IMG/VR virus record: IMGVR_UViG_3300014893_000002
Coordinates: 1-30,764 of that record
DNA from: a virus
Taxonomy: Duplodnaviria; Heunggongvirae; Uroviricota; Caudoviricetes
DNA length: 30,764 bases
Strand: one strand, 5' to 3'
The number at the start of each line of letters is the position of its first letter. Positions within the stretch are counted from its first letter, which is position 1. Shown one piece after another: positions 10,839 to 28,156 of this stretch. The position numbers and the translations under genes are program-made. The notes below the pieces were generated by a model, which was not told the DNA's origin, did no database searches, and saw only the letters and a list, made by a program, of their open reading frames with translations.

Positions 10839-10865
10839 CGCGGGTTATGCGGGTTAGCGGGTTAT
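10839..10865 (+). repeat. three tandem 9 bp direct repeats (GCGGGTTAT, GCGGGTTAG, CGGGTTATC)
   Basis: Read directly from the sequence in an AT-rich non-coding region downstream of TerL. Confidence 0.8.
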
Positions 10866-10941
10866 CTTCGCGTGCTAAGTATTTTTTACTCTTTAATATC
10901 AATACGTTAAAAAACAACGTATTTAAATATCAGCCAGAGTG

Positions 10942-10994
10942 TAACCCGCAAGACATTCAAAATAACCCGCAAACACCCCTCAAAAAACCCGCAA
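10942..10994 (+). repeat. three copies of (T)AACCCGCAA at about 22 bp spacing, inverted relative to the GCGGGTTA repeats
   Basis: TAACCCGCAA at 10942 and 10964, AACCCGCAA at 10987; reverse complement of the GCGGGTTA unit about 80 bp upstream. Confidence 0.8.
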
Positions 10995-11073
10995 AAACAT
11001 CCCTGAAAGTGGGTGCCGGTAATACTGAAAATTTATTCCATTAAATGAGCATTGTCCTCTCTCATCCATTCCG

Positions 11074-12741: not shown

Positions 12742-13075
12742 CCTCTTCCTCTGTTTCCGGTGGATTTCTGCGACGGCTTACCGGGTCAAAACCCAGCAAA
12801 GAAGCCATTTTGATCATTATTCTTTCCGCGTCAGCCTTTGCGCTCAGGGCCGGGTTTCTGCTCTCGCTGCCCTGACTGTTAACAATGCTGAACCCGCGCG
12901 TCGCAAGGTCTTCGACGGCTTTGCGGTATATGGAGTAGTTAACGCAATACAGTTCCAGATTGCTCCAGTCGGCGGGGGTAAGGTCTTCCCGCCCGGAAAG
13001 CTGCCGCGATTTTTCCTTCCACTGCTTTACCGCGATTTCATCCAGGTAAGCGGGGGCTTTTGGTGGTCTTGCCAT
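12719..13075 (-). CDS. terS: terminase small subunit, P27 family
   Basis: Starts MARPPKAPAYL.., the characteristic N-terminus of P27-family small terminases. The track ORF runs from 13216, but that region is more likely non-coding. Confidence 0.8.
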   Translation of the reverse strand: MARPPKAPAYLDEIAVKQWKEKSRQLSGREDLTPADWSNLELYCVNYSIYRKAVEDLATRGFSIVNSQGSESRNPALSAKADAERIMIKMASLLGFDPVSRRRNPPETEEEDELDRLA

Positions 13076-13363
13076 GTTCTTTTTTCGCCCAATTATTTTC
13101 AAAAAAATTCCCGTGCACAAAAATTTGAGGAGGCGGTCGGTGTCCGGCAGGGACGGTTTCGTCCTGAAAACCTCCCCCACCCCCTCTGACGACTTCACCA
13201 GCGATTGCGAAAACATTCCATGACCTCGCGGTCACGGTCGGTTAATCGCTTCGCTGTGGTGCGTTCTGTGCGTCCTATCCTGTTGGCTTTGTGCCCTGTC
13301 TCCTGTGTCTTCCATAAGTCACGCTGCCTTATCAGTCCACGTATCAGCCTGTTTTGCTCCTGT

Positions 13364-13804
13364 TCAGTCATCATCGCCATACATCCAGTCGTTACGATGT
13401 GCCGCCCGTTCTTCCTGCTCGCGATACATGCCCGCCTTACGGTTCGCTTTCGTGGCTGGATCTTCCCGTGTCGTCTTACGGTTGTGGCACGTCTGGCACA
13501 ATGCCTGGTGGTTCCACTCAGGCCAGAAGAGAACATCACCGCCGCCATTGATGGGGATAATGTGATCCACCACAAAGGCTGGCGTATAAATACCCTCAGC
13601 CAGACAACGCACACATAACGGATTTTTTTTCAGGTACAGGGCGCGATATTTGTCCCACTGTCGGGAATACCCGCGCGCGCGGCGGTGTCCCCGTCTGGCA
13701 TCCTCTGCACGCCATGCGGCCCGCCTGTGTTCTTCACACTTGCCGGACTTCACGCGCTTATTACAGCCCGGCTCTGTGCATCGCCTTAATGGTTGCCACG
13801 GCAT
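13364..13804 (-). CDS. HNH endonuclease (packaging-associated)
   Basis: Cys-rich N-terminus and HNH core (..VVDHIIPINGGG..NHQALCQTCHNRKT..); located immediately upstream of TerS as in HK97-type cos phages. Confidence 0.85.
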   Translation of the reverse strand: MPWQPLRRCTEPGCNKRVKSGKCEEHRRAAWRAEDARRGHRRARGYSRQWDKYRALYLKKNPLCVRCLAEGIYTPAFVVDHIIPINGGGDVLFWPEWNHQALCQTCHNRKTTREDPATKANRKAGMYREQEERAAHRNDWMYGDDD

Positions 13805-14100
13805 CAGTACACCCCCACATCACGATAAACCGACCAGAGCGCGGAAATCGTCAGGGGAATTTCTTTTGTATCTGTATCGCCAAGCGTTGTCCGGTACTCG
13901 TACAGTTGCGAGATGTACATCAGGCAGCCAATTTTTATTGCAGGGGTAAATTCCAGGCCATCATCAAAACGCCTACCAATATGTTTCTGACATACCTCCA
14001 GCGCCGCGCTTATGTATGCCTGAATCAGTGTGTCTTCTGTGTTACCGTCTATGCGGCAGTGAAGTTTGGCTTCTTCCAGGGTTATTTTTTCTGCTGTCAT
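13804..14100 (-). CDS. head-tail connector protein (gp6-like), head module 2
   Basis: 98 aa; paralog of 6229-6546 (..L.E.K.H.RID..D.LI..YI.AA..). ATGA overlap with the HNH start. Confidence 0.65.
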   Translation of the reverse strand: MTAEKITLEEAKLHCRIDGNTEDTLIQAYISAALEVCQKHIGRRFDDGLEFTPAIKIGCLMYISQLYEYRTTLGDTDTKEIPLTISALWSVYRDVGVY

Positions 14101-14435
14101 TTTTCTGTACCCACCTTTGCCAGAATTTCCAGCCGGGTTCTTTTCGCATCAGGTAAGGGGATCCCGATGATATTAAGCGTGCTCCCGGCAAAAGCACCGG
14201 TAAGCACTTTCAGTCGACTGGCGGCGGATATGTCGCCACGATAGCGAACCCATACCCGAATCGTTGCAGGTGCGGTTTCTGCGCCTGCGGTCAGTAATTC
14301 CCGTCCGCTGATCCCCTTGACCTCTGCCCAGATGGTTTCCCCTTCCGTCCATATCTGCCGGATCGCTCCTGACGGCAGGCGCTGCGTGATAAATGTCATA
14401 ATCGTCACCCGGTCCCGCATATTTCCGGCTATCAT
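14097..14435 (-). CDS. head-tail adaptor / head closure protein (SPP1 gp16-like), head module 2
   Basis: 112 aa; shares VWAEVKGISGRE, SRLKVLTGAF and TRLEIL with the copy at 5882-6220, roughly 60 percent identity by eye. Confidence 0.75.
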   Translation of the reverse strand: MIAGNMRDRVTIMTFITQRLPSGAIRQIWTEGETIWAEVKGISGRELLTAGAETAPATIRVWVRYRGDISAASRLKVLTGAFAGSTLNIIGIPLPDAKRTRLEILAKVGTEK

Positions 14436-15655
14436 TCGTCACCGCCCTGACTGTTCTTGCTGATTGTCACTTCCTGCTTCCATGCCTGGCTGAACTCGTC
14501 GCCACCTTCACGCGGCGGCATTCCCTCACGCTCACGGGCTTCGTTCGGATTCATGATCCCGTTCTTAATCCCTTTCTCATACGTGGCGTAACGTTCGGTA
14601 GGGGTGGCGCGTAATAAATCAGCTGAATCAAACTCAACCAGATAACGGGTACCGGGTACGGGAGAAGCCACCAGCAAAGCGGCCTTGATTTGCTGTTCGA
14701 AGTTCGCCAGCCACGGGCGCATTGTCATGGTCAGAAACGCGCGGCTTGCCTCGCTGAAATTGCTGTAGGTGCTGTTGCTGTATTCCTGCAGAAAAATAGG
14801 CGATACGTTGAACATCCGGGCGATGTCTTCAATGGAGAAGCGACGGGAGGCCAGCCATTCCGCATCCTGGTTACTCATTCCCAGTTGCTTGTAATCCATG
14901 CCCCCTTCAAGGATTGGCGTTTTTCCGGCATTTTTCGCCCCCTTGTAGCGTTCCAGAGCATCCAATGCCTGTTTACCTTTCACGCCGTCCAGCCATTCGC
15001 CTGACGTGATAATCCCTGCCGCCATCATGCCATCTTTCATAATGCTGGCTCCGTGGCGCTGTTGAGCAAGGCCAAGCCCAAGTGCCTCACGGCAAATCGT
15101 GACAGGGGAGCGCCCCAGAAAGCCATCATCCGAGGCATAGCGGAGATGCAGAACTTCTTCCTGTAAATACGTGCGCACCGTTCCTGTATAGGGTTCGGTG
15201 ATGGTATAGCGGTATTTGTGTGCGCCTGTGCGTTCCGGTACAACACAACCCGGTGCATAAGGATGAAGTGATTTTGGCTGACCGTCCCGCCCCCACTCAA
15301 TAACCGCATAGGCGTTACCGTTCAGCAGGCAGTGACGCATCATTGTGCGTTTAAACTGGTAAGGTGTCTGGCACGAATTAGGCTGCTCATTCAGCAGAAT
15401 ATCTACCGGATGACTGTCCAGCCATTCCCGCGCCTCCCTGCCCTTGTCATTACGTACCAGATACAGATAACAAGGCATCGTGGCCACCGCCTCAGCGATG
15501 ACAGAAACCGCGTTCATCACTGCAGGCAATGATTCAGCCGTCCCGGCAGAAACATATTCTCCGGATCCGGTATTCGGTACGCCGGCCAGCGCCAGAAAAT
15601 CATCAATGGACAGGTTACGTTGCTCACTTTTTTTACGACTAAAAGGCCACCACAT
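14432..15655 (-). CDS. portal protein, HK97 family (head module 2)
   Basis: HK97-type portal motifs (..LLNGNAY.., ..GMSNQDAEWLASRRFSIEDIARMFNVSP.., ..NPNEAREREGMPP..GGDE). Start placed at ATG 15655, just after the protease stop; the track start at 15745 overlaps the protease gene. Confidence 0.85.
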   Translation of the reverse strand: MWWPFSRKKSEQRNLSIDDFLALAGVPNTGSGEYVSAGTAESLPAVMNAVSVIAEAVATMPCYLYLVRNDKGREAREWLDSHPVDILLNEQPNSCQTPYQFKRTMMRHCLLNGNAYAVIEWGRDGQPKSLHPYAPGCVVPERTGAHKYRYTITEPYTGTVRTYLQEEVLHLRYASDDGFLGRSPVTICREALGLGLAQQRHGASIMKDGMMAAGIITSGEWLDGVKGKQALDALERYKGAKNAGKTPILEGGMDYKQLGMSNQDAEWLASRRFSIEDIARMFNVSPIFLQEYSNSTYSNFSEASRAFLTMTMRPWLANFEQQIKAALLVASPVPGTRYLVEFDSADLLRATPTERYATYEKGIKNGIMNPNEAREREGMPPREGGDEFSQAWKQEVTISKNSQGGDE

Positions 15656-15656
15656 A

Positions 15657-16217
15657 TCACAACCCCGCCAGCTCTGCCCAGCGATGACGATTATTTCCTG
15701 CCGGGCGTAATTCAGGGTGCAGTGCAAACAACGAACGGTGGGCAATCTCCACGCCAGATTCTGGATAAGCAGGCATCGACGTTATCGTGATTTCACGGAG
15801 TTCTGCGGCGGTAACAGTGCGCAGATACGGTTTTTGCGCGATATTCCACTCCTCGCATAATGCGCGAAAGCCAAAGCTCATTCCTGTAATGTCGCCCCGC
15901 TCCACCAGCGTAAGCACATCTTTCCCAAGCTGGGTATCCGGCGGTGTCAGTTCAAAACGTAACCCGGTGTTATCCTCAGTCAGTACCAGAGTGCCGGATT
16001 TGGTACGCCCCAGCAGTCGGGTACAGTCATGCTCATACAGGCAGCGCACATCATTACCCGCAGCCAGATAGTCAGCAAAAGCCCCCGGCGTGAACTGTTC
16101 GCGGAACTCATCCCAGATAATTTCTGAAAGGCTGTTCCAGCGAACGGCATACCCCACCAGCTTTTTATTGCTGGCGGTCAGTTCAGATGTGCGGATTTCA
16201 AAATCGGTGTTTTTCAT
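15657..16217 (-). CDS. prohead protease, HK97 gp4 family (head module 2)
   Basis: 186 aa with ..GYAVRWNS.., ..TPGAF.., ..GMSFGF.. and ..MPAYPESG.. pattern; GGAG RBS. Confidence 0.85.
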   Translation of the reverse strand: MKNTDFEIRTSELTASNKKLVGYAVRWNSLSEIIWDEFREQFTPGAFADYLAAGNDVRCLYEHDCTRLLGRTKSGTLVLTEDNTGLRFELTPPDTQLGKDVLTLVERGDITGMSFGFRALCEEWNIAQKPYLRTVTAAELREITITSMPAYPESGVEIAHRSLFALHPELRPAGNNRHRWAELAGL

Positions 16218-16234
16218 CGGTGTACTCCATAAAG

Positions 16235-16260
16235 CTGAAAAAGGAGGCCGCAGCCTCCTC
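16235..16260 (-). terminator. intrinsic terminator or attenuator between capsid gene 2 and protease gene 2
   Basis: Minus strand reads AGGAGGC-TGCG-GCCTCCT followed by UUUUU. Confidence 0.55.
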
Positions 16261-16271
16261 CTTACTCATGA

Positions 16272-17441
16272 CTAGCCAGCTTTCATTTCCAGAATTTTGA
16301 TGGCGTTTGAATCCACCACACCACCGCCCAGATATTTATCCGTGTGGACCTTGTAGAATCCGGGTTCAGTAATGTTGTCCGGTCGGGTGCGAATACCCGT
16401 TACATGATCAACGATGAAATAACCACGACTGAAATCACCAACCGCGAGCGGTGCTTTTCCTGCGCCGATGTCCGGCATGGACTCCAGGCAGTAAACAGGA
16501 CGACCAAGCAACATATCCGGCGCACCTTCTTTAAGGCTGTCGCGCCAGATATAATCGCCGTTCTCGTTTTTCAGCTTCTGTAGTGTCCCTGCCGTGCCCG
16601 AGTTCATCACCCAGACGGCATTTTTGCGGTATTTCGCTTTCAGCTTGTAGAGAATGTCGATCAGTTCGTCCGCTGTAATGGCGGTTCCACTTGCCGCTAC
16701 CATTTTTTCAATGGTGCCAAAAGCGCGGGTTTTGTCACTGGTCGCTGCACGGGTGTAAGCCATGAAGCCTTTCGGCTTGCCGTTACCGTCGCCATTAACA
16801 AAATCATCCTCTTCGGTGCTGGCGAACGTGTCGGCAATTTCGGAGGATAACCAGCCCAGAATATCCACCTCTGAAAAATCCAGAATTTCCTGCGTGGTTT
16901 TCGGGTAGGCGTAGATAGGATTCAACTTGATGGTTACGCGTTCAATTTTCGGGGTGTTGGTTTCGCTGCGCGCGCTGCCTTCTGTGCCTCGTCCTACAGT
17001 TGCGCCGCCAGTGGAAACCAGTTTCTGAAACTCATTTGATTTTGCGGTCTTCACGGTCGCAATCACGCGCATAACACTGTCATCCTGTAGCTGGCGCATG
17101 ACTTCGCGATCAAGCTCAGGAATTACGGTATATCCGCCATCCCTGCCGCTGTCAGTGCTGGTGGACAGTGATCGCACATCTCCGGTTACGATGTAGTTAC
17201 GCAATTCATCAGATGATAATTTCCGGATACCCGTTCCTGGCTTGCTGCGTTCTTCATCATCCACAGATTCGAGGCGGGAGATTTCTGTGTCGAGGGAATC
17301 GGCTTTTGCACGCAGTTCATCAAACTGTTTGCCCTCGTCATCGTTCAGGCTGCGGTTTTCACTGTCGGCTTTTTCCAGCAGAGATCGCATCTGGTTTTTC
17401 AGGGCGGTTTTTTGCTGGCGGAGTTCGATTAATTTCTTCAT
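16272..17441 (-). CDS. major capsid protein, HK97 fold (head module 2)
   Basis: 389 aa with an N-terminal coiled-coil delta-like domain and the ..DFVNGDGNGKPKGF.. segment matching the HK97 NGDGTG motif. Confidence 0.85.
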   Translation of the reverse strand: MKKLIELRQQKTALKNQMRSLLEKADSENRSLNDDEGKQFDELRAKADSLDTEISRLESVDDEERSKPGTGIRKLSSDELRNYIVTGDVRSLSTSTDSGRDGGYTVIPELDREVMRQLQDDSVMRVIATVKTAKSNEFQKLVSTGGATVGRGTEGSARSETNTPKIERVTIKLNPIYAYPKTTQEILDFSEVDILGWLSSEIADTFASTEEDDFVNGDGNGKPKGFMAYTRAATSDKTRAFGTIEKMVAASGTAITADELIDILYKLKAKYRKNAVWVMNSGTAGTLQKLKNENGDYIWRDSLKEGAPDMLLGRPVYCLESMPDIGAGKAPLAVGDFSRGYFIVDHVTGIRTRPDNITEPGFYKVHTDKYLGGGVVDSNAIKILEMKAG

Positions 17442-17727
17442 GAAGGTTTTCTCGTATTGGTTAAGATTCAGGACGTGAAACCAACACGGAGGGAGCGCCG
17501 CCCGACACTCTCGGAATCTCGCAGATCAACCCGGCATCGCGCAGGGGGTCAGGCGGCATTGTGGCGGCTCACGTCTGAGTGCCACGCTCCAACATATACA
17601 TAAAAATCAGTATGTAAACACCTGTCAGTCAGACCGAACAACCACGAAAGAACACGAACAAATAATTTACAAAAGAAGTAAACCATGGCCTATTATTGCT
17701 GTCTCTGACTACAACAAAGGACGCATC

Positions 17728-18234
17728 ATGAATTTAAGCGCAATGGTATACCCTGATACTTTCATAATTAATGGCGAATCATTCAGAGGTAAAAGAAACG
17801 CAAAAGAAAACAAGGTATTAATTCCATATACAAATGAACCGGAAGTAACTATTGGTCAACACATTATCCAGCGTGTCGGTAAAAACGAGATAAATCTAAA
17901 AATTATAGATATGAAGTTGCTTCCCAATGGAACCCTCAGACAGGGAACCAATCATCCAAATATGTTGACTCTCTATATTGAAAATATCACGGGAAATGAA
18001 CATATGACGCCAACTAAAAGTAATACATTTAACATTGGTTCAATTAGTGGTGATCAAGTGCAGATAGGTGAGCATAACCATATGCTGGTAAACATCAGCA
18101 TCACTGAACTGGTTGAAAAAGTCGCTAAATCGGGGGATGTACAAGCCAAATCAGTATTAAAGCAGTTACTGGAAAACAGTACCGTTGCCAGCATTGTTGG
18201 GGCTGGCGCAAGTGCCCTAATAGGCTTACTGTAA
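17728..18234 (+). CDS. hypothetical protein with C-terminal hydrophobic tail, AT-rich cargo gene
   Basis: 168 aa ORF on the opposite strand to the phage operons, with AAAGGA RBS, markedly lower GC than its surroundings, its own terminator, and a C-terminus ..STVASIVGAGASALIGLL. No recognisable family. Confidence 0.6.
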   Translation: MNLSAMVYPDTFIINGESFRGKRNAKENKVLIPYTNEPEVTIGQHIIQRVGKNEINLKIIDMKLLPNGTLRQGTNHPNMLTLYIENITGNEHMTPTKSNTFNIGSISGDQVQIGEHNHMLVNISITELVEKVAKSGDVQAKSVLKQLLENSTVASIVGAGASALIGLL

Positions 18235-18271
18235 AAAAATGGCCTGGATTTTACCAGGCCTTTATTATTTT
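18233..18271. terminator. bidirectional intrinsic terminator
   Basis: GGCCTGG-ATTTTA-CCAGGCC hairpin flanked by an A-run upstream and a T-run downstream; sits between convergent genes. Confidence 0.65.
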
Positions 18272-18518
18272 ACCGTTTCACGGGATCGCGCATTCTGCGC
18301 CTTATTTTCCACAGATATTCGATCATCGCTTCCACCTGTTCACGGTTGGTTGCGAAAATTTCCCCGGTCAGTGAGCTGCGCAGAAAATCATGATGATCCA
18401 CAACAAACAACGCATCGGAAGAAAGCAGACGGCGATATTTTTTTGCTGTCGTGGTTTCCAGATCATCAAAACCATGAAACTTTTTATGTTGCTGAACTTC
18501 TTCAAATGTCACAGGCAT
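18270..18518 (-). CDS. hypothetical protein
   Basis: 82 aa from ATG 18518 with a strong AGGAGG RBS; no recognisable family. Confidence 0.5.
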   Translation of the reverse strand: MPVTFEEVQQHKKFHGFDDLETTTAKKYRRLLSSDALFVVDHHDFLRSSLTGEIFATNREQVEAMIEYLWKIRRRMRDPVKR

Positions 18519-18563
18519 GTTTCCTCCTGCTACCACGATACCAGAAACAGTTAACAACCGTTA

Positions 18564-18767
18564 TCAATTATCCCTTTTTTTCGGGTAGTTCCTGAACATC
18601 TCACCGCCAGGTTTCTGTAAGCCCATCCCGGTATGTGTGCGGTTTATGGCCTCTTTCAGTATTCCGAAATTATCCGGTATGACTGGTTGGCGCGCTGCCT
18701 TACGGATACATTCAGCGCGACGCTTTGCCACCTGTTCGCGCTCCTTGTCAGTGCTCACCAGCCACAT
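18564..18767 (-). CDS. hypothetical protein
   Basis: 67 aa ORF upstream of 18270-18518 on the same strand; weak RBS. Confidence 0.3.
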   Translation of the reverse strand: MWLVSTDKEREQVAKRRAECIRKAARQPVIPDNFGILKEAINRTHTGMGLQKPGGEMFRNYPKKRDN

Positions 18768-18943
18768 AACATCAGCCCAACGTGCCGCTGCTCTCCGGTA
18801 CAGCTGAAGGGACGTAAGATAAATGAATGGTGATTCGTGAGATAATTTCGAACGGGAGTGGGTTAAAACGAATGCTACCGAATAATTTTATGAAATTGTT
18901 TTGCTGTATGTGAAACGGTAGCAGTTCACAAAAAACAGAGAAT

Positions 18944-19144
18944 ATGAGTGGTAAAATTTCTAATCCGTGTTCCGTGAATGGAGAAATATTGCCCATGCCC
19001 GATAAAAATAGCAACCCATCTGACTTTTCTGAAGATATGAAAGGATGCGTTACCTTTGAGTCAGAACGTTATGGACCATCAGGCGACTCATCAGATAACC
19101 GTTCTTCTCAGTCTGATGACGATGCACCGCCACCACGGGACTAA
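18944..19144 (+). CDS. small acidic Ser/Asp-rich hypothetical protein
   Basis: 66 aa ORF (possibly shorter from an internal Met) ending ..DSSDNRSSQSDDDAPPPRD; convergent with the membrane protein gene. Coding status uncertain. Confidence 0.25.
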   Translation: MSGKISNPCSVNGEILPMPDKNSNPSDFSEDMKGCVTFESERYGPSGDSSDNRSSQSDDDAPPPRD

Positions 19145-19785
19145 TCTTTCTGCCGTGCGCTAATGGCTTTATTTCTGGTTCGTCTGATCCTCACCATGGC
19201 AATCTGATCTGCAGGGATATAGGTTGCCATCGCTCCCCAGCTTTTACTTTCAACATCTTTTTCAATCCATTCATCGCGCCCCGGTTTCTTTTCATGAGTG
19301 ACATACATCACTATGTCTTTTTCCACTCCTAACACAAAAGAACCGCTGGCCTGGCCTTCAAATTTCCCCGGATTTTCAGAAAGCAGCACAGTACCATTCT
19401 TCAGATAGACATACGCCTCGCTGATATAGTATCCATGTTGATCAAACATACGCATCCAGGCAGAGGGGGTATCATCAGACCATGATATATCCTTATTTCT
19501 GAGGAATCTGTACATCCATTTACGCCCATATTTTCTCCATAATGCAGCGTATGCAAAAGCGCAAAGAAGTGTTGGAGGTGTCGCCAGCCACGAATTCAGA
19601 CCTGCCCACATAACAGCCTGGTAAACCATCATTGACAGCAAACCAAAAATCAGCGTCGAAAACGTCACCTCAATGGGTTTGTGATGGTTCTTCAGCCCCA
19701 CGTTCGCAATAAAATAGCCGATATAACCACTGGTGAGCGTCACCAGCGTTGCCCATGGCAGATTCAGCAAGGATGCATCAAACAT
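19141..19785 (-). CDS. integral membrane protein of unknown function
   Basis: 214 aa with several predicted N-terminal transmembrane helices and a soluble C-terminal domain; GGAGG RBS. Separated from the Mor-side genes by a terminator. Confidence 0.6.
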   Translation of the reverse strand: MFDASLLNLPWATLVTLTSGYIGYFIANVGLKNHHKPIEVTFSTLIFGLLSMMVYQAVMWAGLNSWLATPPTLLCAFAYAALWRKYGRKWMYRFLRNKDISWSDDTPSAWMRMFDQHGYYISEAYVYLKNGTVLLSENPGKFEGQASGSFVLGVEKDIVMYVTHEKKPGRDEWIEKDVESKSWGAMATYIPADQIAMVRIRRTRNKAISARQKD

Positions 19786-19817
19786 ATTTCCTCCGGTGAT
19801 ATGTTTTTCTGCCAGAA

Positions 19818-19853
19818 TAAAAAAAGCGCAACAGGTTATCCATTGCGCTTTTC
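19818..19853. terminator. bidirectional intrinsic terminator
   Basis: AAAAGCGCAA, an 11 nt loop, then TTGCGCTTTT; perfect 10 bp complement flanked by A and T runs. Confidence 0.5.
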
Positions 19854-19879
19854 ATAAACCGGGAATTTATTGACGTTCG

Positions 19880-20116
19880 TTAACACTTTGGTGGCGGTGG
19901 TGGTGGGTTACGTAAAACTTTCCCGTAATACAAAACACAATTTTCATCAGGCCCGATATGCAGGCGCGAGTTGTCAATCAGCCTGTCGCATTCCCGGAGA
20001 ACATATCTCGCCTCAGCAGAAGTCAGACCGTCAAAAAAATGCCGGATAATTTCCATCGCCATATCTGCATGGTCTGCCTTCTTCAGGGGGGCGCTGTTGG
20101 GGGTTTTATAGCGCAT
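19880..20116 (-). CDS. hypothetical protein (Pro-rich C-terminus)
   Basis: 78 aa from ATG 20116 with GAGG RBS; ends ..RNPPPPPPKC; immediately downstream of mor. Confidence 0.45.
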   Translation of the reverse strand: MRYKTPNSAPLKKADHADMAMEIIRHFFDGLTSAEARYVLRECDRLIDNSRLHIGPDENCVLYYGKVLRNPPPPPPKC

Positions 20117-20133
20117 TATCACCTCGCTTTTGA

Positions 20134-20520
20134 TTAATCCCGGCTGTCATCCGGTTCATCATCGTCTTCGAATAACTGTCCCTGCAACCGGCTGATTTCT
20201 TCCTTTCTTACGCGCTTCACCAGGTTGTAAATCCAGGGAACTGAAACCCTGAATCTGCGGGACAGTTCGTGGTGGTTACGTCCGTTAAACGCCTCATAGA
20301 TTTCACGGTCACGCTGGCTTATCTTCCATCTCATCCCCATAGGAAAATAAACGTTTTGCCCGCCCCAGACCTGCATCATGCGGTTCGCGACGGCCTGACC
20401 AATCTGGTCGGCAATTGCGGGCTCAATATCAATAATCTCGCGAACGGTCTCAGAGGTATGCTGTGCCAGTTCCACCAGGAGTTCCGGCCCTTTACTTCGA
20501 AACTGATTCAGGTCGCTCAT
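20134..20520 (-). CDS. mor: Mor-family transcriptional activator (phage Mu middle operon regulator-like)
   Basis: C-terminal region ..GGQNVYFPMG..REIYEAFNGRNHHELSRRFRVSVPWIYNLVKRVRK matches the Mu Mor/C family pattern (GGQ.VYIP.G .. FNGRN..EL...Y.V). Acidic C-terminal tail. Confidence 0.8.
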   Translation of the reverse strand: MSDLNQFRSKGPELLVELAQHTSETVREIIDIEPAIADQIGQAVANRMMQVWGGQNVYFPMGMRWKISQRDREIYEAFNGRNHHELSRRFRVSVPWIYNLVKRVRKEEISRLQGQLFEDDDEPDDSRD

Positions 20521-20944
20521 GTTTTACTCCCGCAGCTCTGCGCTGCCACTTCTTCAGTTTCTCAATAACACTGCTTGCCTGTTCAGTATTGAGCCAGCGC
20601 AGGGCGCTGATGCCCGTTTCCCGCTTGATCCACCGCGCTAATGCATTTTCTGAACGGTCACGAACAATGCCGGCAGCAGCCATTTCAAGCCATAGCGCAC
20701 GAATTTTCCTGGACTGCGGATGGTTATCCAGCGGTAAACCGGAGCTGGCTTTTCTGGCAGGCTTAACGCGAAAGCCTTTCCTTTTCATGGATTCCAGCAC
20801 GCAGTTTAGTTGTGTGGTATCCATTCCTTTGGTTGAGGCTTTACCGGTCAGCCCCTGTAACATCTGGCGGTAGGTGTCTTCATCCATACCCAGTTCATTA
20901 CGGGCAATATGAATGAGCTGGATAAGACGTTGTTTAGTCATCAT
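20492..20944 (-). CDS. gemA: GemA / Mu gp16-like protein (DUF1018)
   Basis: MTKQRLIQLIHIARNELGMDEDTYRQMLQGLTGKAS.. is typical of Mu gp16/GemA-like proteins; AAGGAG RBS upstream of ATG 20944. Confidence 0.65.
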   Translation of the reverse strand: MMTKQRLIQLIHIARNELGMDEDTYRQMLQGLTGKASTKGMDTTQLNCVLESMKRKGFRVKPARKASSGLPLDNHPQSRKIRALWLEMAAAGIVRDRSENALARWIKRETGISALRWLNTEQASSVIEKLKKWQRRAAGVKHERPESVSK

Positions 20945-21149
20945 CGTTGCTCCTTTTACCTGCGCCACCGATATAATCGACATATAAAGGAAGCGCCACA
21001 GGCCAGCACAGGAACATCACCGACCAGCTAATCCAGTAGCCGGCACCACTGTAACGTGAATAAAACCCTGAACGGCGGTGCAGTTCAGCAGTACACCAAC
21101 CGACAAAACAATACCAGAACAGGGCACATACAACAGATTCAGCCGTCAT
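20934..21149 (-). CDS. small membrane protein
   Basis: About 71 aa from ATG 21149, hydrophobic (..VVCALFWYCFVGW.., ..WSVMFLCWPVALPLY..). Confidence 0.4.
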   Translation of the reverse strand: MTAESVVCALFWYCFVGWCTAELHRRSGFYSRYSGAGYWISWSVMFLCWPVALPLYVDYIGGAGKRSNDDD

Positions 21150-21369
21150 TCTGAATATCCCCCCAACTGATATGAATATTACGGGCAGCAATGACAGGGT
21201 CGTTATTCCACCATGCACCTGACATGTATTTTTCAACCTGTTCGCGTCCGGCAATAACACCAATTGTGATCCCCGGCCTGACGTTCTTAAAAAAGGCGCG
21301 GGCAAAAAGGTATCTGGCAGATATTCGGCAGGCTTTTAATTTCCGGCTGTTACCTGATAGCGTAATCAT
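21139..21369 (-). CDS. hypothetical protein
   Basis: 76 aa; ATG overlaps the stop of the upstream gene (ATGA), consistent with an operon. Confidence 0.4.
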   Translation of the reverse strand: MITLSGNSRKLKACRISARYLFARAFFKNVRPGITIGVIAGREQVEKYMSGAWWNNDPVIAARNIHISWGDIQNDG

Positions 21370-22049
21370 CTGGCCTCCAGTTTCTGTTGTTCCTGCCCAC
21401 TGACCGGGCGGTGCAGTCTGACGTTCTGCCCTTCACGAAACCCCGCATAGCGCGAGGCGTCGCCATTGCGGCTTCTTCCCGGTTTACGCGCCCTGGTGGT
21501 TTGCGTTTGCGGGTATTTATGTTCCAGCCACTGTTGCATCAGTTCACGCTCATCATCGGTCAGGGCAAAGGACTGTATTTCACTGATAACGGCCAGTACC
21601 CAGCCTTCAGCAAACTGGTCTCCACGGCTGGTACGGGTGGCGTTTTTTATTCTTTTGTTCTGTGCGCTGATATACTGCTGACGCGCCTTTTTCAGCTGGC
21701 GGACCAGCACTTCCCAGGTGTACGCAGCCAGTGCCGCTCGTTCCCGGTTACCGTAGAACCCCACAGACGGATGCGTGCCGGGGTGAATGATGGAGTTAAC
21801 ACCAAATGCCTCGCGGATGATGTTCATCAGGCCCAGCATGTAGCGCGGTGGACGGAGACTGCCTGTCGGCCAGTAATGACTGATGGTTTCATCAATATCA
21901 CTCATAGCAATGTCGGAATGTGTGATGCCGTGAACATCCATCAGTTTACGGGCTCGGCGCAGTGCCAGAGCGGCCTCGTGCGGGTTGCCGGATGCGGCCA
22001 GCGCCAGCAACTTTTTCAGTTTCTCAATGTGTTTATTCTGGTCTGTCAT
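21366..22049 (-). CDS. DUF2786-like phage protein
   Basis: N-terminus MTDQNKHIEKLKKLLALAASGNPHEAALALRRA.. resembles DUF2786-type proteins common in prophage early regions; start set at ATG 22049. Confidence 0.5.
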   Translation of the reverse strand: MTDQNKHIEKLKKLLALAASGNPHEAALALRRARKLMDVHGITHSDIAMSDIDETISHYWPTGSLRPPRYMLGLMNIIREAFGVNSIIHPGTHPSVGFYGNRERAALAAYTWEVLVRQLKKARQQYISAQNKRIKNATRTSRGDQFAEGWVLAVISEIQSFALTDDERELMQQWLEHKYPQTQTTRARKPGRSRNGDASRYAGFREGQNVRLHRPVSGQEQQKLEAR

Positions 22050-22261
22050 TGTTCTGTATCTCCGGTATTTTTCTGCCGTTTCCATGCCCGGACAGCGTCG
22101 GACAGCTCTTTCAGGCTGTATGCTGCTTTAAGCTTTTCCCATAACCACTGTGTTGTTATGTGCATCAGCAGGGCAGCCAGGGCTGCCCCCGCACTGAGGC
22201 ATGTCGCCAGGCCAGTAAGAATCAGTGTCCATGCGGTGATTTCCCTGAGTATGTCAGCCAT
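22046..22261 (-). CDS. small membrane protein
   Basis: 71 aa with a central hydrophobic helix (..WTLILTGLATCLSAGAALAALLM..). Confidence 0.4.
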   Translation of the reverse strand: MADILREITAWTLILTGLATCLSAGAALAALLMHITTQWLWEKLKAAYSLKELSDAVRAWKRQKNTGDTEQ

Positions 22262-22275
22262 TGAATGCCTCCCGG

Positions 22276-22572
22276 TTACTCGTTCGTGTAAATCACGCCC
22301 AGTCGTGCAGCCAGACGTTCCAGTTTTTTCTGTTTGTGGAAGTCAATCAGCCGGTCCATCCCCTGAAGGCGCAGTTGCTCTGTCATGATTTCCACGTCTG
22401 CCAGCTCTGCCGCGAGGTCACTTTCGCTGCCCTGTCCGTTCAGGTTGCGGGCGGCACTGGCCGCCAGTTCAGCGGCCTCTTCTGTCAGTTTCAGGGCCTG
22501 TGCGTCCGGCCCGAAACGCTGCAGGGCCAGACGGTAGAGGGCGGTGCGGGTGAGTTCGGTGTTTCGTGTCAT
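22276..22572 (-). CDS. MazG-like nucleotide pyrophosphohydrolase domain protein (putative)
   Basis: 98 aa with ..LTEEAAELAASAA.. and ..AAELADVEIMTEQL.. resembling the EExxE/ELADV helices of small MazG-like proteins. Tentative. Confidence 0.4.
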   Translation of the reverse strand: MTRNTELTRTALYRLALQRFGPDAQALKLTEEAAELAASAARNLNGQGSESDLAAELADVEIMTEQLRLQGMDRLIDFHKQKKLERLAARLGVIYTNE

Positions 22573-22581
22573 GCCGCGCCC

Positions 22582-22854
22582 TCAGTGCTTCCGGCTGACG
22601 GTGATGTGCAGGCCGCCTTCTGCAGTGGTTTCCATCCGGTACGGCACCTCATGCTCTGCCGTGTGGGTGAGTGTGTTCATCAGTACCTGCAGGGCAGCCT
22701 CCTTTCCGTTGGTCGCCACAATGGCCTGTGTGGCCATGCTGATTAGCGCCGTCAGGACGTGCTTCACATCGGTGAGGTCGCGGCATTCACACTCGTTGAC
22801 ATAGTGTTCAACAAGAGTTCGGGTGCGCTGTCGTGCTTCCTGTGGGGTAATCAT
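22582..22854 (-). CDS. hypothetical protein
   Basis: 90 aa ORF within the early operon; no recognisable family. Confidence 0.4.
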   Translation of the reverse strand: MITPQEARQRTRTLVEHYVNECECRDLTDVKHVLTALISMATQAIVATNGKEAALQVLMNTLTHTAEHEVPYRMETTAEGGLHITVSRKH

Positions 22855-23045
22855 TGCGCGTCCTCCCTGTCAGGGCGGGAGAATTCTATGACGGGCACGT
22901 CCGCCGAAAAATGCTGGCTGCAGTACGGGCAGACCAGGGTGACACGTACTGCAGGTATGTGATACTTACCGGACATCACGGCGATGGCGCTGTGAAAACG
23001 CAGGGCTGTTATATCCCTCTCGCACTGAATACATTTAAATATCAT
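22851..23045 (-). CDS. small zinc-ribbon protein
   Basis: 64 aa with paired CxxC motifs (C5/C8 and C39/C42); GAGGAG RBS. Confidence 0.45.
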   Translation of the reverse strand: MIFKCIQCERDITALRFHSAIAVMSGKYHIPAVRVTLVCPYCSQHFSADVPVIEFSRPDREDAQ

Positions 23046-23142
23046 AATTTAATTCTCCTCTGTTTCCGGCGTGCAGAAGCCCACGGCGCTGACGCCGGAA
23101 TAAAAAAGAAAATGTTTTTATTAAATAATTAACGTGGTGTGT

Positions 23143-23673
23143 TTACTGCACATCCTGCTCAAAAGGAATTATTGAAAAATCCTCAATATCACTTTTTATG
23201 GTAATACCGGGAATATTTTTCACAGCCTCTTTTTCATTCAGAATGGCATCTTTATTTATTTCCTCCTTTACACGAATAAAGCGCTCAAGCCCCAGACGTC
23301 TCAGCAGTTCAATGACATTATCCGCCCCGCGAATGCTGACTGACGGCGGACGGTTTCGCCACTGCACCTCGCCGGTGGTGAGGTTAGCGAACTTCACCTT
23401 CCCGTTGCCGGTCAGTTCATCACGGTGCGCCTCACACCATGTCTGGATACCGGACTGCAGTTCGGCCATGCGTTTTTTCAGGCTCTCGGTGAGCGGGGCA
23501 TAACGTGCAGTGATGTCGCCAATGGTGTCATTCATTTCTGTTTCAGCCCTGACCAGTTCACGTTGCGCGTCACCAAGCAGTCTGATTCCCTCAATGACCT
23601 CTTCGCGTGTCCCCGGCACCCAGAGTGCTGCTGCGGCTTTGATACGTTTTGCCCCTTTTGTACTTTTTGCCAT
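23143..23673 (-). CDS. gam: host-nuclease inhibitor protein Gam (phage Mu Gam-like)
   Basis: 176 aa; near-colinear similarity to Mu Gam as recalled (MAK..KRIK.AAA..VP, ..WCEA.RDELT..GKVK.ANL.TG.V.WR.RPPSVSIRG.., ..GIT.KS.IEDFSIIPFEQ). Confidence 0.85.
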   Translation of the reverse strand: MAKSTKGAKRIKAAAALWVPGTREEVIEGIRLLGDAQRELVRAETEMNDTIGDITARYAPLTESLKKRMAELQSGIQTWCEAHRDELTGNGKVKFANLTTGEVQWRNRPPSVSIRGADNVIELLRRLGLERFIRVKEEINKDAILNEKEAVKNIPGITIKSDIEDFSIIPFEQDVQ

Positions 23674-23700
23674 ATTTTATGACTCCTCCTGTTGTGCTGA

Positions 23701-23970
23701 TTACCACAAAGATTCCGGCCACACGACGCGACAGCCGTGCAGTTCGAAAACGCCCTGACGGAAATATCCCCTGTGGTCATGTCCGGTATACAGATAACAG
23801 GCCTTTCCCTGCTCAAGCATGCGCATGCAATGCGCACTCCTGGAAACACGGATGACAGGTTTGTTACCCCTGATGGTGATGCTTTGTACATCCGTGTTCG
23901 TCGCCTTAAGCGCCATAATGGCTGACTGCACTTTACTGATTTGCTGGTTGATACCTGTGGTGGATTTCAT
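23701..23970 (-). CDS. hypothetical protein
   Basis: 89 aa ORF between the B-like ATPase and gam; no recognisable family. Confidence 0.4.
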   Translation of the reverse strand: MKSTTGINQQISKVQSAIMALKATNTDVQSITIRGNKPVIRVSRSAHCMRMLEQGKACYLYTGHDHRGYFRQGVFELHGCRVVWPESLW

Positions 23971-23972
23971 TA

Positions 23973-25139
23973 TTAAACCCCTTTGACAACGTCAGCGTTG
24001 ACCTGTGGAGCCCCGATTTCAGCGGCCAGATTCATGGCGGCTATTACCAGGTTACTGACGGCCAGCGGATACAGCAGGCTGACCATATTTTTACGATGAC
24101 TTCCCGGATTGCTCAGGCGGGGACGTATGGCATCCACTGCGCTGGCGTCCATAATGTCCGTCAGTTGTTTACCGGCCCGTTGCAGTTTGAACGTCAGAAA
24201 CTCTTCAAGGTGATTGTCCAGAGGCAGAAGTTCGACCACCTCACAGCGCTGAACGACTTCGCGGACTTCCATATTGCGTTCAGACAGTTTTGTCGCCAGT
24301 TCCGGCTGGCCAATCAGCACGATGGACAGCAGTTTTTTAAAACCGGACTCCAGCTCAAAAAAGCGTTTGAGGTGTTTCAGTGTCGGAATGGGCAGACTGT
24401 GGGCCTCCTCAATCACCAGAACGTGGCTGAACCCCGCCTGGCTGCTGTCTTTCAGGACGCGATGCAACTGGCGAAAGCGGGCGTCCTGACTGCGTCTGAT
24501 GCTTTCCAGTGGTGCGATGGTACTGATAATGGCTTCGGCAATCGCTGCTGCCTTCAGGGTTTTCCCTTTCACATCGTTGTCTTCCATAGCGATGATGTAT
24601 GGCTCGATAACAATTACCGGCGCATTCTCGCGGTTGATACGTTCAGTCAGGTCGCGGCGCAGCGTGGATTTACCCGCACCGGACTCACCGATGACGGCCA
24701 TAAACCCACCATGACGGGCTGTCTGGTACAACGCCTCACGCACGTAGCGAATGTCCGGGGTGGTGAACACATCATCAGAACCCTGCATGGCTTCGTCGGC
24801 GAACGGGTCACGGAAAAGACCAAACGCTTTTTTGGTTGCTGGAAATAACACCTGTTTTTTGAGTAACATATTCTCTTCCTCACTGAGGCTCGTTTTATCT
24901 GTGGTACCCGCTGTACGGGGCGTGGCCGCGCCCTGTACAGCATCAAAACTCTTCGTTGTATCAATCCCCTGACTTTCCAGCCAGGACGCAAGACGCCGGC
25001 GCACTTCTCCGGGACTGGTGCGGGGCCACGCGTTATGATTCACAATCTGGGCCAGCGTGGCCTCAGAAACATCGACAGCTCTCGCCACCACCGCCTGTGG
25101 AATACGGGCCTCTTTCAGTTGCTGCTTCAGTACCAGCAT
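23973..25139 (-). CDS. transposition ATPase (MuB/TniB-like AAA+ protein)
   Basis: N-terminal HTH-like segment, Walker A GESGAGKST and Walker B ..HVLVIEEAH; immediately downstream of the DDE transposase. Start set at ATG 25139 with GGAGG RBS. Confidence 0.7.
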   Translation of the reverse strand: MLVLKQQLKEARIPQAVVARAVDVSEATLAQIVNHNAWPRTSPGEVRRRLASWLESQGIDTTKSFDAVQGAATPRTAGTTDKTSLSEEENMLLKKQVLFPATKKAFGLFRDPFADEAMQGSDDVFTTPDIRYVREALYQTARHGGFMAVIGESGAGKSTLRRDLTERINRENAPVIVIEPYIIAMEDNDVKGKTLKAAAIAEAIISTIAPLESIRRSQDARFRQLHRVLKDSSQAGFSHVLVIEEAHSLPIPTLKHLKRFFELESGFKKLLSIVLIGQPELATKLSERNMEVREVVQRCEVVELLPLDNHLEEFLTFKLQRAGKQLTDIMDASAVDAIRPRLSNPGSHRKNMVSLLYPLAVSNLVIAAMNLAAEIGAPQVNADVVKGV

Positions 25140-25149
25140 GTATCCCTCC

Positions 25150-26919: not shown

Positions 26920-26922
26920 TGG

Positions 26923-27837: not shown

Positions 27838-27847
27838 TGATTACTCC

Positions 27848-28156
27848 TTACAAACGACTACCTGAAATAACTCGTTGGTTGATTTCGTTAATACGATCCT
27901 GTGCACGCGCCATCTCGTGACTGTGAGCCATGGCGATCTGTAGTAACTGGATTCCCGGTGCGAAACGTCCGTTCTCTAATTTCATGGCCAGTCCCTCTTC
28001 AATAAGGGTATTAAGTGCTCGATTGATATTCGCCGGGGACTCCCCCAGGGCTGATGCCAGTTCACCGTTAGAAACACCGTTCAGAGCATGACCGCGTAGA
28101 GCTTTGAGTACACGTAGGATGCGGGTCCCAGAACTGGAAATATTTACTTTACTCAT
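27848..28156 (-). CDS. winged-helix DNA-binding protein (putative transcriptional regulator)
   Basis: About 102 aa from ATG 28156; ..GVSNGELASALGESPANINRALNTLIEEGLA.. is an HTH/winged-helix pattern. Confidence 0.45.
   Translation of the reverse strand: MSKVNISSSGTRILRVLKALRGHALNGVSNGELASALGESPANINRALNTLIEEGLAMKLENGRFAPGIQLLQIAMAHSHEMARAQDRINEINQRVISGSRL

What the first reader, a model, noticed from the sequence alone, without database searches (positions are those of the whole stretch)
19141..19860. Membrane protein gene insulated by a terminator from the Mor-side operon
Seen in sequence: a perfect 10 bp stem with flanking A and T runs (19818-19853) lies between the ORF after mor and a 214 aa polytopic membrane protein gene with a GGAGG RBS, which therefore probably has its own promoter. 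Inference: an independently expressed membrane protein at the early/late boundary could be a superinfection-exclusion or lysis-control function; no holin or endolysin was recognised anywhere in the window.
Basis: partly seen in the sequence, partly recalled or inferred. Interest (0 to 1): 0.45.

Follow-up and report, generated by a model that had tools for sequence, protein, structure and literature searches.

The report
Accessory membrane-protein cassette at Mu-like prophage end
The gene is a real but uncharacterised inner-membrane protein (DUF6338 family) that, together with a tiny gene on the opposite strand, forms an optional cassette placed after a conserved transcription terminator at the very end of a Mu-like transposable prophage, so it does not lie at an early/late boundary and is unlikely to be a lysis gene.

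Summary
The 214-aa ORF (19141-19785, minus strand), its GGAGG ribosome-binding site and the hairpin plus T-run (19853-19814) are all present. The hairpin is kept across relatives through compensatory changes.

Window position 18805 is the left end of a Bcepmuvirus-like transposable prophage, which has inserted into the perC gene of an unrelated element. The capsid genes further left therefore belong to other elements, and the phage's lysis cassette lies beyond the right edge of the window.

In BcepMu and in most E. coli relatives, Mor is the last gene before this end. The membrane gene is an add-on, found in about 134 of the 640 genomes that carry this backbone.

The protein is a divergent DUF6338 member. 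It has three transmembrane helices (N-out, C-in) and a cytoplasmic Sm-like beta-barrel.

One new feature emerged. Relatives down to 27% identity, inside and outside Mu contexts, carry a convergent 40-60-aa gene ending in a polyproline-basic tail that abuts the stop codon. It shows the substitution pattern of a coding gene.

No sigma-70 or Mor-type promoter was found. Only a weak candidate promoter nested inside the terminator was seen.

The function is not shown. My best inference is a membrane-acting accessory (exclusion, defence or addiction) pair, not lysis control.

The parts
19141..19785 (-). DUF6338-family inner-membrane protein gene, 214 aa. It has three transmembrane helices (N-out, C-in) and a cytoplasmic Sm-like beta-barrel spanning about residues 105-205.
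19790..19794 (-). Shine-Dalgarno sequence GGAGG, 4 nt upstream of the ATG.
   Evidence: Read directly from the sequence. It is identical in the 73%-identity allele.
19814..19853 (-). Intrinsic terminator of the leftward early (Mor-side) operon: hairpin 19853-19821, then TTTTTTTATTCT.
   Evidence: Pattern scan. Hairpin energy -16.8 kcal/mol. Compensatory changes in 5 of 13 pairs across relatives. Unrelated hairpins with T-runs at the same place in Klebsiella, Salmonella and other lineages.
19814..19842 (-). Candidate weak sigma-70 promoter nested in the terminator: -35-like TGGATA (19842-19837, in the hairpin loop), a 17-nt spacer, and -10-like TATTCT (19819-19814). This is an inference only.
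   Evidence: It matches 8 of 12 consensus positions, below the scan threshold. The loop positions T-G-A and the TATxCT element are conserved in four of the hairpin variants, while the stem varies.
18995..19144 (+). Convergent microprotein gene of 49 aa (the longer open frame starts at 18944). The product is hydrophilic and acidic, with the C-terminal tail ...DDDAPPPRD. Its stop codon overlaps the DUF6338 stop codon by 4 nt.
   Evidence: ORF. Conserved partner ORF in the loci examined. Strict criteria were met at 16 of 32 distinct loci against 1 of 408 control gene ends. Substitutions concentrate at third codon positions. Annotated publicly as a 49-aa hypothetical protein.
19880..20122 (-). ORF80, the last gene before the terminator. 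Function unknown. It ends in NPPPPPPKC.
   Evidence: ORF. No Pfam, PHROG, PADLOC or NCBIfam hit. A 37%-identity allele ending in SPPPRD sits at the same place.
20134..20520 (-). Mor-family transcription activator gene.
   Evidence: Pfam Mor E 5e-41; PHROG 532, late transcriptional activator.
18805..18850 (.). Left end of the transposable prophage: terminal 5'-TG on the plus strand (...CCCTTCA-3' on the gene strand), and two direct repeats CGTRAGATAA at 18813-18822 and 18836-18845, which are probable transposase-binding sites.
   Evidence: Similarity to other genomes stops here, and the flanking host genes differ between genomes. The repeats TTATCTCACG / TTATCTTACG recur at the ends of all lineages examined.
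18564..18804 (-). 5'-truncated perC gene of a different element. This is the insertion target and marks the outer boundary of the prophage.
   Evidence: Pfam PerC matches only profile positions 27-89. The intact 98-aa gene in E. coli 042 extends 41 nt beyond the point where similarity to the window ends.

Best explanation
Shown here:
- The 214-aa ORF encodes a divergent DUF6338-family inner-membrane protein. It has three transmembrane helices, with the N-terminus outside and a roughly 120-aa Sm-like beta-barrel in the cytoplasm.
- With a convergent 49-aa microprotein gene (18995-19144) it forms an optional cassette. The cassette sits between the terminator that ends the leftward early operon (after Mor and ORF80) and the left transposon end (18805) of a Bcepmuvirus-like prophage.

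Inferred:
- The hairpin is the early-operon terminator. It keeps strong lytic transcription out of the cassette.
- The membrane gene is then expressed at a low level, either from a weak promoter nested in the hairpin (loop TGGATA, 17 nt, TATTCT) or by residual read-through.
- The cassette is a moron-type accessory function acting at the inner membrane. Candidate roles are superinfection exclusion, abortive defence, or addiction.
- The microprotein is its partner or regulator, possibly docking its polyproline-basic tail on the barrel.
- It is not part of the lysis machinery.
For: Position and accessory nature:
- The prophage end at 18805 is shown by 98-100% identical copies that abut different host genes.
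- In a full-length sister prophage, the late operon (holin, SLT, terminase, tail genes) lies on the other side.
- BcepMu and the ST131-type E. coli prophage have Mor as their last gene, 140-360 nt from the end.
- The GemA-Mor backbone is in 640 of 5426 complete E. coli genomes, but the cassette is in only 134.
- The region around the gene (windows spanning 19050-19949) is 44-47% GC, against 50-56% in the early-operon windows from about 19950 to 22350.
- In every enterobacterial homologue examined, the gene is the last one after Mor, although Mor identity ranges from 30 to 100%.

Terminator: conservation with compensatory changes, plus unrelated hairpins at the same site.

Protein.

Partner gene:
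- A convergent small ORF is found down to 27% identity, including loci with no Mu genes.
- Strict criteria gave 16 of 32 loci against 1 of 408 controls, Fisher p about 1e-19.
- Substitutions are biased towards synonymous, third-position changes.

Not lysis:
- Relatives have a complete holin-SLT-Rz cassette elsewhere.
- Family members occur next to a resolvase, a terminase or a tail gene, without lysis genes nearby.
Against: - There is no functional evidence of any kind. PADLOC has no hit even at E up to 1, and no paper in the held library (open-access PubMed Central and bioRxiv) mentions a function for DUF6338.
- No promoter of 9/12 or better lies between the terminator and the ATG. If the gene is expressed only by read-through from the repressed early promoter, it would be silent in lysogens, and an exclusion role would be unlikely.
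- In two lineages (L047, L048) another ORF abuts the gene, so it is plainly co-transcribed with something there.
- No terminator follows the gene on its own strand, so it is not a textbook moron.
- The tail-barrel interaction is purely an idea. The tail is PPPRD in the window, not a strict PxxP motif, and a few lineages lack the proline tail.
- The distinct loci used for the statistics are related to one another, so the p-value overstates independence.
Confidence: 0.5

Rival explanations
1. It is an ordinary early lytic gene. It is transcribed from the early promoter by partial read-through of the terminator, so the hairpin acts as an attenuator that sets a low dose. It would serve the phage's own lytic development at the membrane, for example replication or transposition, DNA handling, or host takeover, and it would be silent in the lysogen.
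For: - The gene is on the same strand as the early operon and immediately downstream of it.
- Only 35 nt separate the hairpin from the ATG, and no good promoter is present there.
- In some relatives another ORF abuts the gene.
- Its position after Mor is strictly conserved across divergent enterobacterial phages.
Against: - Most phages with this backbone, and BcepMu itself, lack the gene, so it is dispensable for the lytic cycle.
- The family and its small partner gene also occur in non-Mu elements.
- The hairpins are strong (-14 to -18 kcal/mol) with long U-tracts.
- In read-through transcripts the ribosome-binding site is predicted to pair with upstream sequence.
Confidence: 0.2
2. It is a selfish addiction (toxin-antitoxin-like) pair. 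The membrane protein is toxic, and the convergent microprotein, or its antisense transcript, neutralises it. The pair would stabilise whichever mobile element carries it.
For: - The pair is a conserved two-gene unit with 3' ends that abut or overlap, found in unrelated mobile-element contexts.
- Both genes show signs of tight control of translation. In lineage d the ribosome-binding site of the membrane gene lies in a hairpin. In the L002 type, the ribosome-binding site and start codon of the microprotein gene lie in a 16-bp stem with z-score -2.6.
- The upstream terminator limits the dose of the membrane protein.
Against: - No toxin or antitoxin family matches either protein.
- The net charge of the microprotein is not conserved: it is acidic in the window and basic in alpha-proteobacteria.
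- Some lineages lack a detectable partner ORF.
Confidence: 0.15
3. It has a lysis-control function (holin, antiholin or pinholin-like).
For: The N-terminal three-helix bundle gives weak Foldseek matches to LydA and other three-TM holins (E 0.02-0.7).
Against: - Those matches are not significant, and any three-helix membrane hairpin could produce them.
- The protein carries a 120-aa folded cytoplasmic domain.
- Relatives already have a holin, SLT and Rz cassette about 12 kb away.
- Most sister phages lyse without this gene.
- Family members occur in loci without lysis genes.
Confidence: 0.06

Closest known systems
Pfam DUF6338 (PF19865) / PHROG 12870
   Same: Same length class (about 200-215 aa) and same architecture. 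The PHROG match covers the full length (E 7e-92). Homologues of 59-61% identity carry PF19865.
   Different: The window protein itself scores below Pfam's gathering cut-off (16.3 against 26.5 bits). Neither family has any assigned function, so membership explains nothing about mechanism.
Phage morons (HK97/lambda sense: autonomously expressed accessory genes present in some relatives only)
   Same: - The cassette is present in some relatives and absent in others with the same backbone.
- Its GC content is lower than that of its neighbours.
- It sits at a genome edge, outside the operon terminator.
   Different: No clear promoter of its own and no terminator downstream on its strand. It comes as a convergent gene pair, not as a single gene.
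Prophage inner-membrane superinfection-exclusion proteins, for example P22 SieA (PMC10883804)
   Same: A small polytopic inner-membrane protein encoded by a temperate phage outside the structural and lysis modules.
   Different: No sequence or profile similarity was found to any defence or exclusion model. [quoted passage not shown] Expression from the prophage and exclusion have not been tested.
Phage Mu early operon ending at mor (from my own knowledge of Mu, not checked here), and BcepMu gp01
   Same: Mor is the last regulator of the early operon, and transcription stops after it. In BcepMu, gp01 (Mor) is the leftmost gene.
   Different: In Mu, a Mor-dependent promoter and the C gene follow mor. 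Here the motif shared by the four late promoters of the sister prophage is absent upstream of the membrane gene.
MscS-type mechanosensitive channels (three TM helices followed by an Sm-like beta domain, forming a heptamer)
   Same: Same gross architecture and topology: N-out, three TM helices, then an Sm-like barrel in the cytoplasm.
   Different: - The profile comparison with E. coli MscS gave 0.2% probability.
- No MS_channel Pfam hit.
- The MscS C-terminal alpha/beta domain is absent.
Sm/LSm/Hfq fold
   Different: There is no sequence similarity. The barrel has extra strands, and the domain is fused to a membrane anchor. RNA binding and ring formation are untested.

Membership tests
Pfam DUF6338 (PF19865) | Score at or above the curated gathering cut-off (26.5 bits). 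| tested here: not met
   16.3 bits, E 0.0075, covering residues 72-202.
Pfam DUF6338 (PF19865) | Transitive homology: full-length homologues that are themselves members. | tested here: met
   30 of 49 aligned homologues hit DUF6338 (best E 1.4e-6). Homologues of 59-61% identity carry a precomputed PF19865 assignment.
PHROG 12870 | Significant full-length profile match. | tested here: met
   E 6.9e-92; residues 1-205 against profile positions 1-206 of 210.
Intrinsic (Rho-independent) terminator | GC-rich hairpin immediately followed by a U-tract on the transcribed strand. | tested here: met
   14 pairs, -16.8 kcal/mol, 7 T.
Intrinsic (Rho-independent) terminator | The structure is conserved in relatives even though the sequence changes. 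| tested here: met
   5 of 13 pairs show compensatory changes, and 93% of cells are paired against 38-63% in slid controls. Unrelated hairpins with T-runs occupy the same site in L011, L047 and L051.
Intrinsic (Rho-independent) terminator | It stops transcription in vivo. | not testable with these tools
   This needs RNA 3'-end mapping or a reporter read-through assay.
Moron | Present in some members of a phage lineage and absent from otherwise similar relatives. | tested here: met
   134 against 640 of 5426 E. coli genomes. Absent from the ST131-type prophage and from BcepMu.
Moron | Base composition different from the neighbouring genes. | tested here: met
   44-47% GC in the windows around the gene (19050-19949), against 50-56% in the early-operon windows from about 19950 to 22350.
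Moron | Its own promoter. | tested here: inconclusive
   No match of 9/12 or better. An 8/12 arrangement is nested in the hairpin and conserved in 4 variants. No Mor-type late promoter motif.
Moron | Its own downstream terminator. | tested here: not met
   No minus-strand terminator-like site between 19141 and 18805.
Holin / lysis-control protein | A small membrane protein encoded in a lysis cassette next to an endolysin. | tested here: not met
   In a sister prophage and in BcepMu, the lysis cassette is at the start of the rightward late operon. This gene lies at the opposite end of the early arm and has a 120-aa cytoplasmic domain.
Superinfection-exclusion or anti-phage defence protein | Similarity to a known defence or exclusion family. 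| tested here: not met
   PADLOC-DB 2.0.0 gave no hit at E up to 1. NCBIfam gave nothing meaningful.
Superinfection-exclusion or anti-phage defence protein | Expressed from the prophage and reduces infection by a challenging phage. | not testable with these tools
   This needs lysogen transcriptomics and plaque assays.
MscS family | Sequence or profile homology to the MS_channel core (TM3 plus beta domain). | tested here: not met
   hhalign probability 0.2%. No PF00924 hit.
Sm/LSm fold | A five-stranded, strongly bent beta-barrel that superposes on Sm proteins. | tested here: met
Sm/LSm fold | Forms a hexameric or heptameric ring and binds RNA. | not testable with these tools
   Only single-chain prediction was available.

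The most novel reading that the evidence does not exclude
DUF6338 together with its convergent polyproline-tailed microprotein is an undescribed two-component module of mobile elements. In this reading, a membrane-anchored Sm-like barrel, possibly forming a ring as Sm proteins and MscS do, has an activity at the inner membrane that is held in check or triggered by the microprotein. The cassette would act as an anti-phage exclusion system or as an addiction system.
Probability: 0.3. Interest if true: 0.75.

Novelty: new variant of a known kind. Interest (0 to 1): 0.5.

Why it matters
About one in forty complete E. coli genomes carries this cassette, and relatives occur in Salmonella, Klebsiella, Proteus, Serratia, insect symbionts, rhizobia and a cyanophage. 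Yet neither gene has a known role, and the pairing appears not to have been noted before.

If the pair is a defence, exclusion or addiction system, two things follow. It would add a membrane-anchored Sm-like protein with a microprotein partner to the known repertoire. It would also identify the slot after Mor at the end of Bcepmuvirus-like prophages as a cargo site.

For annotation, the case shows how nested mobile elements can make a terminal cargo gene look as if it sits at an early/late boundary.

Tried and rejected
- MscS homology: same architecture, but hhalign gave 0.2% probability and there was no Pfam hit.
- Holin: only non-significant fold matches to the three-TM part, and the genomic context is wrong.
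- Known defence families: no PADLOC hit.
- Sequence relatives with solved structures: none; the best E-value was 0.3.
- Mor-dependent promoter: I derived a motif from four late promoters of a sister prophage (TTAA-N6-TTTAAWATC-N20-AWRCTG). It has no match in the window with up to 2 mismatches. The sequence upstream of the hairpin resembles the upstream half of the motif, but the spacing is 4-5 bp too long.
- Rfam: no match in 18500-20600 at E up to 1.
- Plus-strand hairpin at 19152-19167, just after the microprotein stop codon: weak (-6.8 kcal/mol), so I do not claim it as a terminator.
- Pairing of the ribosome-binding site with sequence upstream of the hairpin: present in some lineages in different forms, but not consistent enough to claim.
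- The AlphaFold-database fold library was unavailable.
- Literature searches for DUF6338, PF19865, Bcepmuvirus in E. coli, and membrane Sm-like defence proteins gave nothing on function.

Full report
**1. Observation**

The ORF at 19141-19785 (minus strand, 214 aa, ATG start) is present, with GGAGG at 19794-19790. Upstream on the same strand lies 5'-GAAAAGCGCAATGGATAACCTGTTGCGCTTTTT-3' (19853-19821), followed by TTATTCTG. It forms 14 pairs at -16.8 kcal/mol and is followed by seven T. It sits between ORF80 (19880-20122), which follows mor (20134-20520; Pfam Mor E 5e-41), and the membrane gene.

Pattern hits of this kind are common here: 7 were found against 4.5 +/- 2.2 expected. The case for a real terminator therefore rests on comparison with relatives, described in section 3.

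**2. Where the gene really sits**

Megablast of 17400-20600 against 5426 complete E. coli genomes splits cleanly at window position 18804/18805.
- The stretch 18805-20600 recurs at 98-99.5% identity next to different host genes: a sulfatase gene, ycbJ, yeiE, nlpA, an L-ribulose-5-phosphate epimerase gene, and others.
- The stretch 17400-18804 recurs elsewhere together with a PerC regulator gene and an HK97-type capsid gene.
- The window and strain SCU-105 diverge exactly after ...CCCTTCA, which is TGAAGGG... at 18805 on the plus strand. The preceding bases carry two repeats of TTATCT(C/T)ACG.

This is the end of a transposable phage. The SCU-105 copy is a complete prophage of about 38 kb. From its left end it reads:
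- the 214-aa gene, a 78-aa gene, Mor, GemA, further early genes, Gam, an AAA+ B-like protein and a DDE transposase, all transcribed leftward;
- a regulatory region;
- holin, SLT transglycosylase, terminase, portal, contractile-tail genes and an invertible tail-fibre segment, all transcribed rightward.

This is the BcepMu layout. A related phage record, PhiKM, is classified as Bcepmuvirus. In BcepMu itself, gp01 (Mor) is the leftmost gene and gp21-24 form the lysis cassette.

In the window, the phage has inserted 41 nt into the perC gene of another element; the gene is intact in E. coli 042. Everything left of 18805 therefore belongs to other elements. That includes two separate sets of HK97-type head genes. 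The early/late boundary and the 'missing' lysis genes were artefacts of reading nested elements as a single phage.

**3. The terminator**

In every enterobacterial locus that holds a homologue (55-100% identity), the order is GemA, Mor, zero or one small ORF, the membrane gene, about 330 nt, then the phage end. Mor identity across these loci ranges from 30 to 100%.

A hairpin with a T-run follows the Mor-side genes in almost all of them, but its sequence differs between lineages:
- AAAGCGCAA/TTGCGCTTT (the window);
- GGGCAGA/TCTGCCC (Klebsiella);
- AAAGCACG/CGTGCTTT (Salmonella and Citrobacter);
- AAAAGCACGGTA/TACCGTGCTTTT;
- CACAGTGG/CCACTGTG;
- GATGAGCA/TGCTCATC.

These are documented. Hairpin energies for the five variants folded (the GATGAGCA/TGCTCATC variant was not) range from -13.6 to -17.7 kcal/mol.

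In an ungapped alignment of ten variants, 5 of 13 pairs change on both sides. 93% of cells are paired, against 38-63% when the 3' partners are slid by 1-3 columns. I conclude that this is the functional terminator of the early operon.

**4. How the gene might be expressed**

- Only 35 nt separate the hairpin from the ATG, and the scan finds no sigma-70 site there.
- Four late promoters of the SCU-105 prophage share TTAA-N6-TTTAAWATC-N20-AWRCTG. The window has no match to this motif.
- A weaker arrangement is nested in the terminator: TGGATA in the hairpin loop, 17 nt, then TATTCT at the end of the T-run, matching 8 of 12 consensus positions. In four of the hairpin variants (a, c, d and e) the loop bases T-G-A are invariant and TAT(T/G)CT is kept in most sequences, while the stem changes.
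- This is suggestive, but shared ancestry cannot be excluded as the reason.
- In read-through transcripts, the ribosome-binding site is predicted to pair with sequence upstream of the hairpin in the window. In another lineage it lies in a separate compensated hairpin.
- Whether the promoter or read-through operates remains open.

**5. The protein**

- There are 85 homologues at E of 1e-3 or better, all labelled hypothetical. They come from Enterobacterales, insect symbionts and alpha-proteobacteria.
- An exhaustive profile search finds 528 cluster representatives; the 150 listed are nearly all about 200-215 aa.
- The window protein matches PHROG 12870 (E 7e-92). It falls below Pfam's DUF6338 cut-off, but 30 of 49 relatives hit that family.
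- Hydropathy and charge distribution give three TM segments with the N-terminus outside and the C-terminus inside.
- The AlphaFold2 model (pLDDT 84.9) shows three helices and a beta-rich domain at residues 120-203.
- Invariant residues cluster in three places: TM1 (GYxxYxxAxxG), a cytoplasmic HHK loop, and an SWSD...AW stretch ahead of the barrel.
- Three TM helices followed by an Sm-like barrel recalls MscS.
- There are no matches in PADLOC, in NCBIfam, or by sequence in the PDB.

**6. A partner gene**

Downstream of the membrane gene, on the opposite strand, nearly every locus carries a 40-60-codon ORF whose stop codon abuts or overlaps the membrane gene's stop codon. In the window this is 18995-19144, 49 aa, with GGAG 11 nt upstream of the start.

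- The products are hydrophilic.
- They share an aromatic motif: D[YF]SE[ND]PKG in enterobacteria, and repeated N[YF]xP in alpha-proteobacteria.
- They usually end in a polyproline-basic tail. Examples are ...DAPPPRD...TPPAPLGKK...STPPPSPKKK and ...KPPAPKKK.
- The ORF is present in loci with no Mu genes at all, down to 27% identity of the membrane protein.
- Under strict criteria (36-110 aa, hydrophilic, proline motif in the last 10 residues, stop codon within -15 to +10 nt), 16 of 32 distinct loci qualify against 1 of 408 control gene ends.
- Substitutions concentrate at third codon positions. For example, one pair shows 19 synonymous changes against 1 non-synonymous, and another shows 10 against 3. 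This is the signature of a translated gene under purifying selection.
- Public annotation already lists it as a 49-aa hypothetical protein.
- ORF80, just upstream of the terminator, ends in NPPPPPPKC, and its 37%-identity allele ends in SPPPRD.
- That the tails might dock on the Sm/SH3-like barrel is my inference. I could not test it.

**7. Accessory nature and likely role**

- The GemA-Mor backbone is in 640 of 5426 genomes, and the cassette is in 134.
- The common ST131-type prophage ends about 140 nt after Mor, as BcepMu ends after gp01.
- PhiKM carries a different 114-aa gene in this slot.
- The GC content of the cassette is lower than that of the operon.
- Outside enterobacteria, the pair sits beside a resolvase, a terminase and portal, a tail-associated SGNH esterase or a DUF4145 protein. 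In a Synechococcus phage it lies at the genome end.

A dispensable, mobile, tightly dosed membrane protein with a small partner is the profile of exclusion, defence or addiction cargo. I rate that reading at about 0.5. The rivals are read-through expression as an early lytic gene (0.2), a purely selfish addiction pair (0.15) and lysis control (0.06).

**8. Verdict**

The context and part of the interpretation were wrong. The function remains unknown.

The new and testable result is the conserved pairing of a DUF6338 membrane protein with a convergent microprotein, placed behind the early-operon terminator at the left end of Bcepmuvirus-like prophages.

Noticed in passing
window 1-18804 against 18805-30764: The window is a nest of mobile elements. 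A Bcepmuvirus-like prophage arm (18805 onwards) is inserted into the perC gene of an element that carries an HK97-type capsid (16272-17441), a protease, a portal, an HNH endonuclease and TerL (11074-12741). In E. coli 042 that element also has SSB and a DUF927 primase next to perC, so it resembles a capsid-forming satellite. Further left lies a second head set: a TerL nuclease-only fragment (9821-10546), a portal, a protease, a capsid (6623-7840) and a tape measure (357-3602).
   Followed up: partly
L064 (E. coli SCU-105 prophage) 3540-3580, 10940-10985, 16850-16895, 23450-23490: Four late-operon intergenic regions share TTAA-N6-TTTAAWATC, followed exactly 23 nt later by CTG(T/C)C (within AWRCTG). 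These are probably the Mor-dependent late promoters of this phage group, matching the number of late promoters in Mu.
   Followed up: partly
window 19880-20122 (minus strand): ORF80, the last gene before the terminator, ends in NPPPPPPKC. Its 37%-identity allele in L002 ends in SPPPRD. This is the same kind of tail as on the convergent microprotein, so the membrane gene is flanked by two proline-tailed small proteins.
   Followed up: partly
window 18885-18914 (minus strand): The best sigma-70-like match in the region (TTCACA, 18 nt, TAAAAT; 10 of 12) faces outward within the last 110 bp of the prophage. The motif TTTCACATACTG at this place is conserved in most lineages examined, including prophages that lack the cassette. 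It could be an outward promoter or a transposase or IHF binding site.
   Followed up: no
L002 8780-8900 (minus strand), and the equivalent in L033, L011, L017 and L014: In several lineages, the Shine-Dalgarno sequence and start codon of the microprotein gene lie in the 3' arm of a 16-bp inverted repeat (CATTGAAATCATCCTT ... AAGGATGATTCCAATG). In L002 the fold has a z-score of -2.6, which suggests translational control. The window lineage lacks a convincing equivalent (z-score -0.8).
   Followed up: partly
L031, L033 and L038, 40 nt upstream of the DUF6338 start codon: In one lineage the membrane gene's ribosome-binding site (GGGAGA) is paired in a hairpin that begins right after the terminator T-run (CTCTCTCTGTA ... 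TACAGGGAGA). The variants show compensating differences. A transcript starting inside this hairpin would free the site.
   Followed up: no
window 17728-18234 (plus strand) and 18241-18260: A lone plus-strand gene (168 aa, PHROG 5789, unknown function, 36-39% GC) sits in the PerC element. It is followed by a bidirectional terminator-like hairpin (GGCCTGG...CCAGGCC). It looks like a separate moron in the other element.
   Followed up: no
window 20934-21305 (minus strand): A 123-aa ORF between the GemA gene and the DUF2786 gene has a hydrophobic C-terminal half and matches PHROG 6436 (unknown function). It is a second small membrane protein in the early operon.
   Followed up: no
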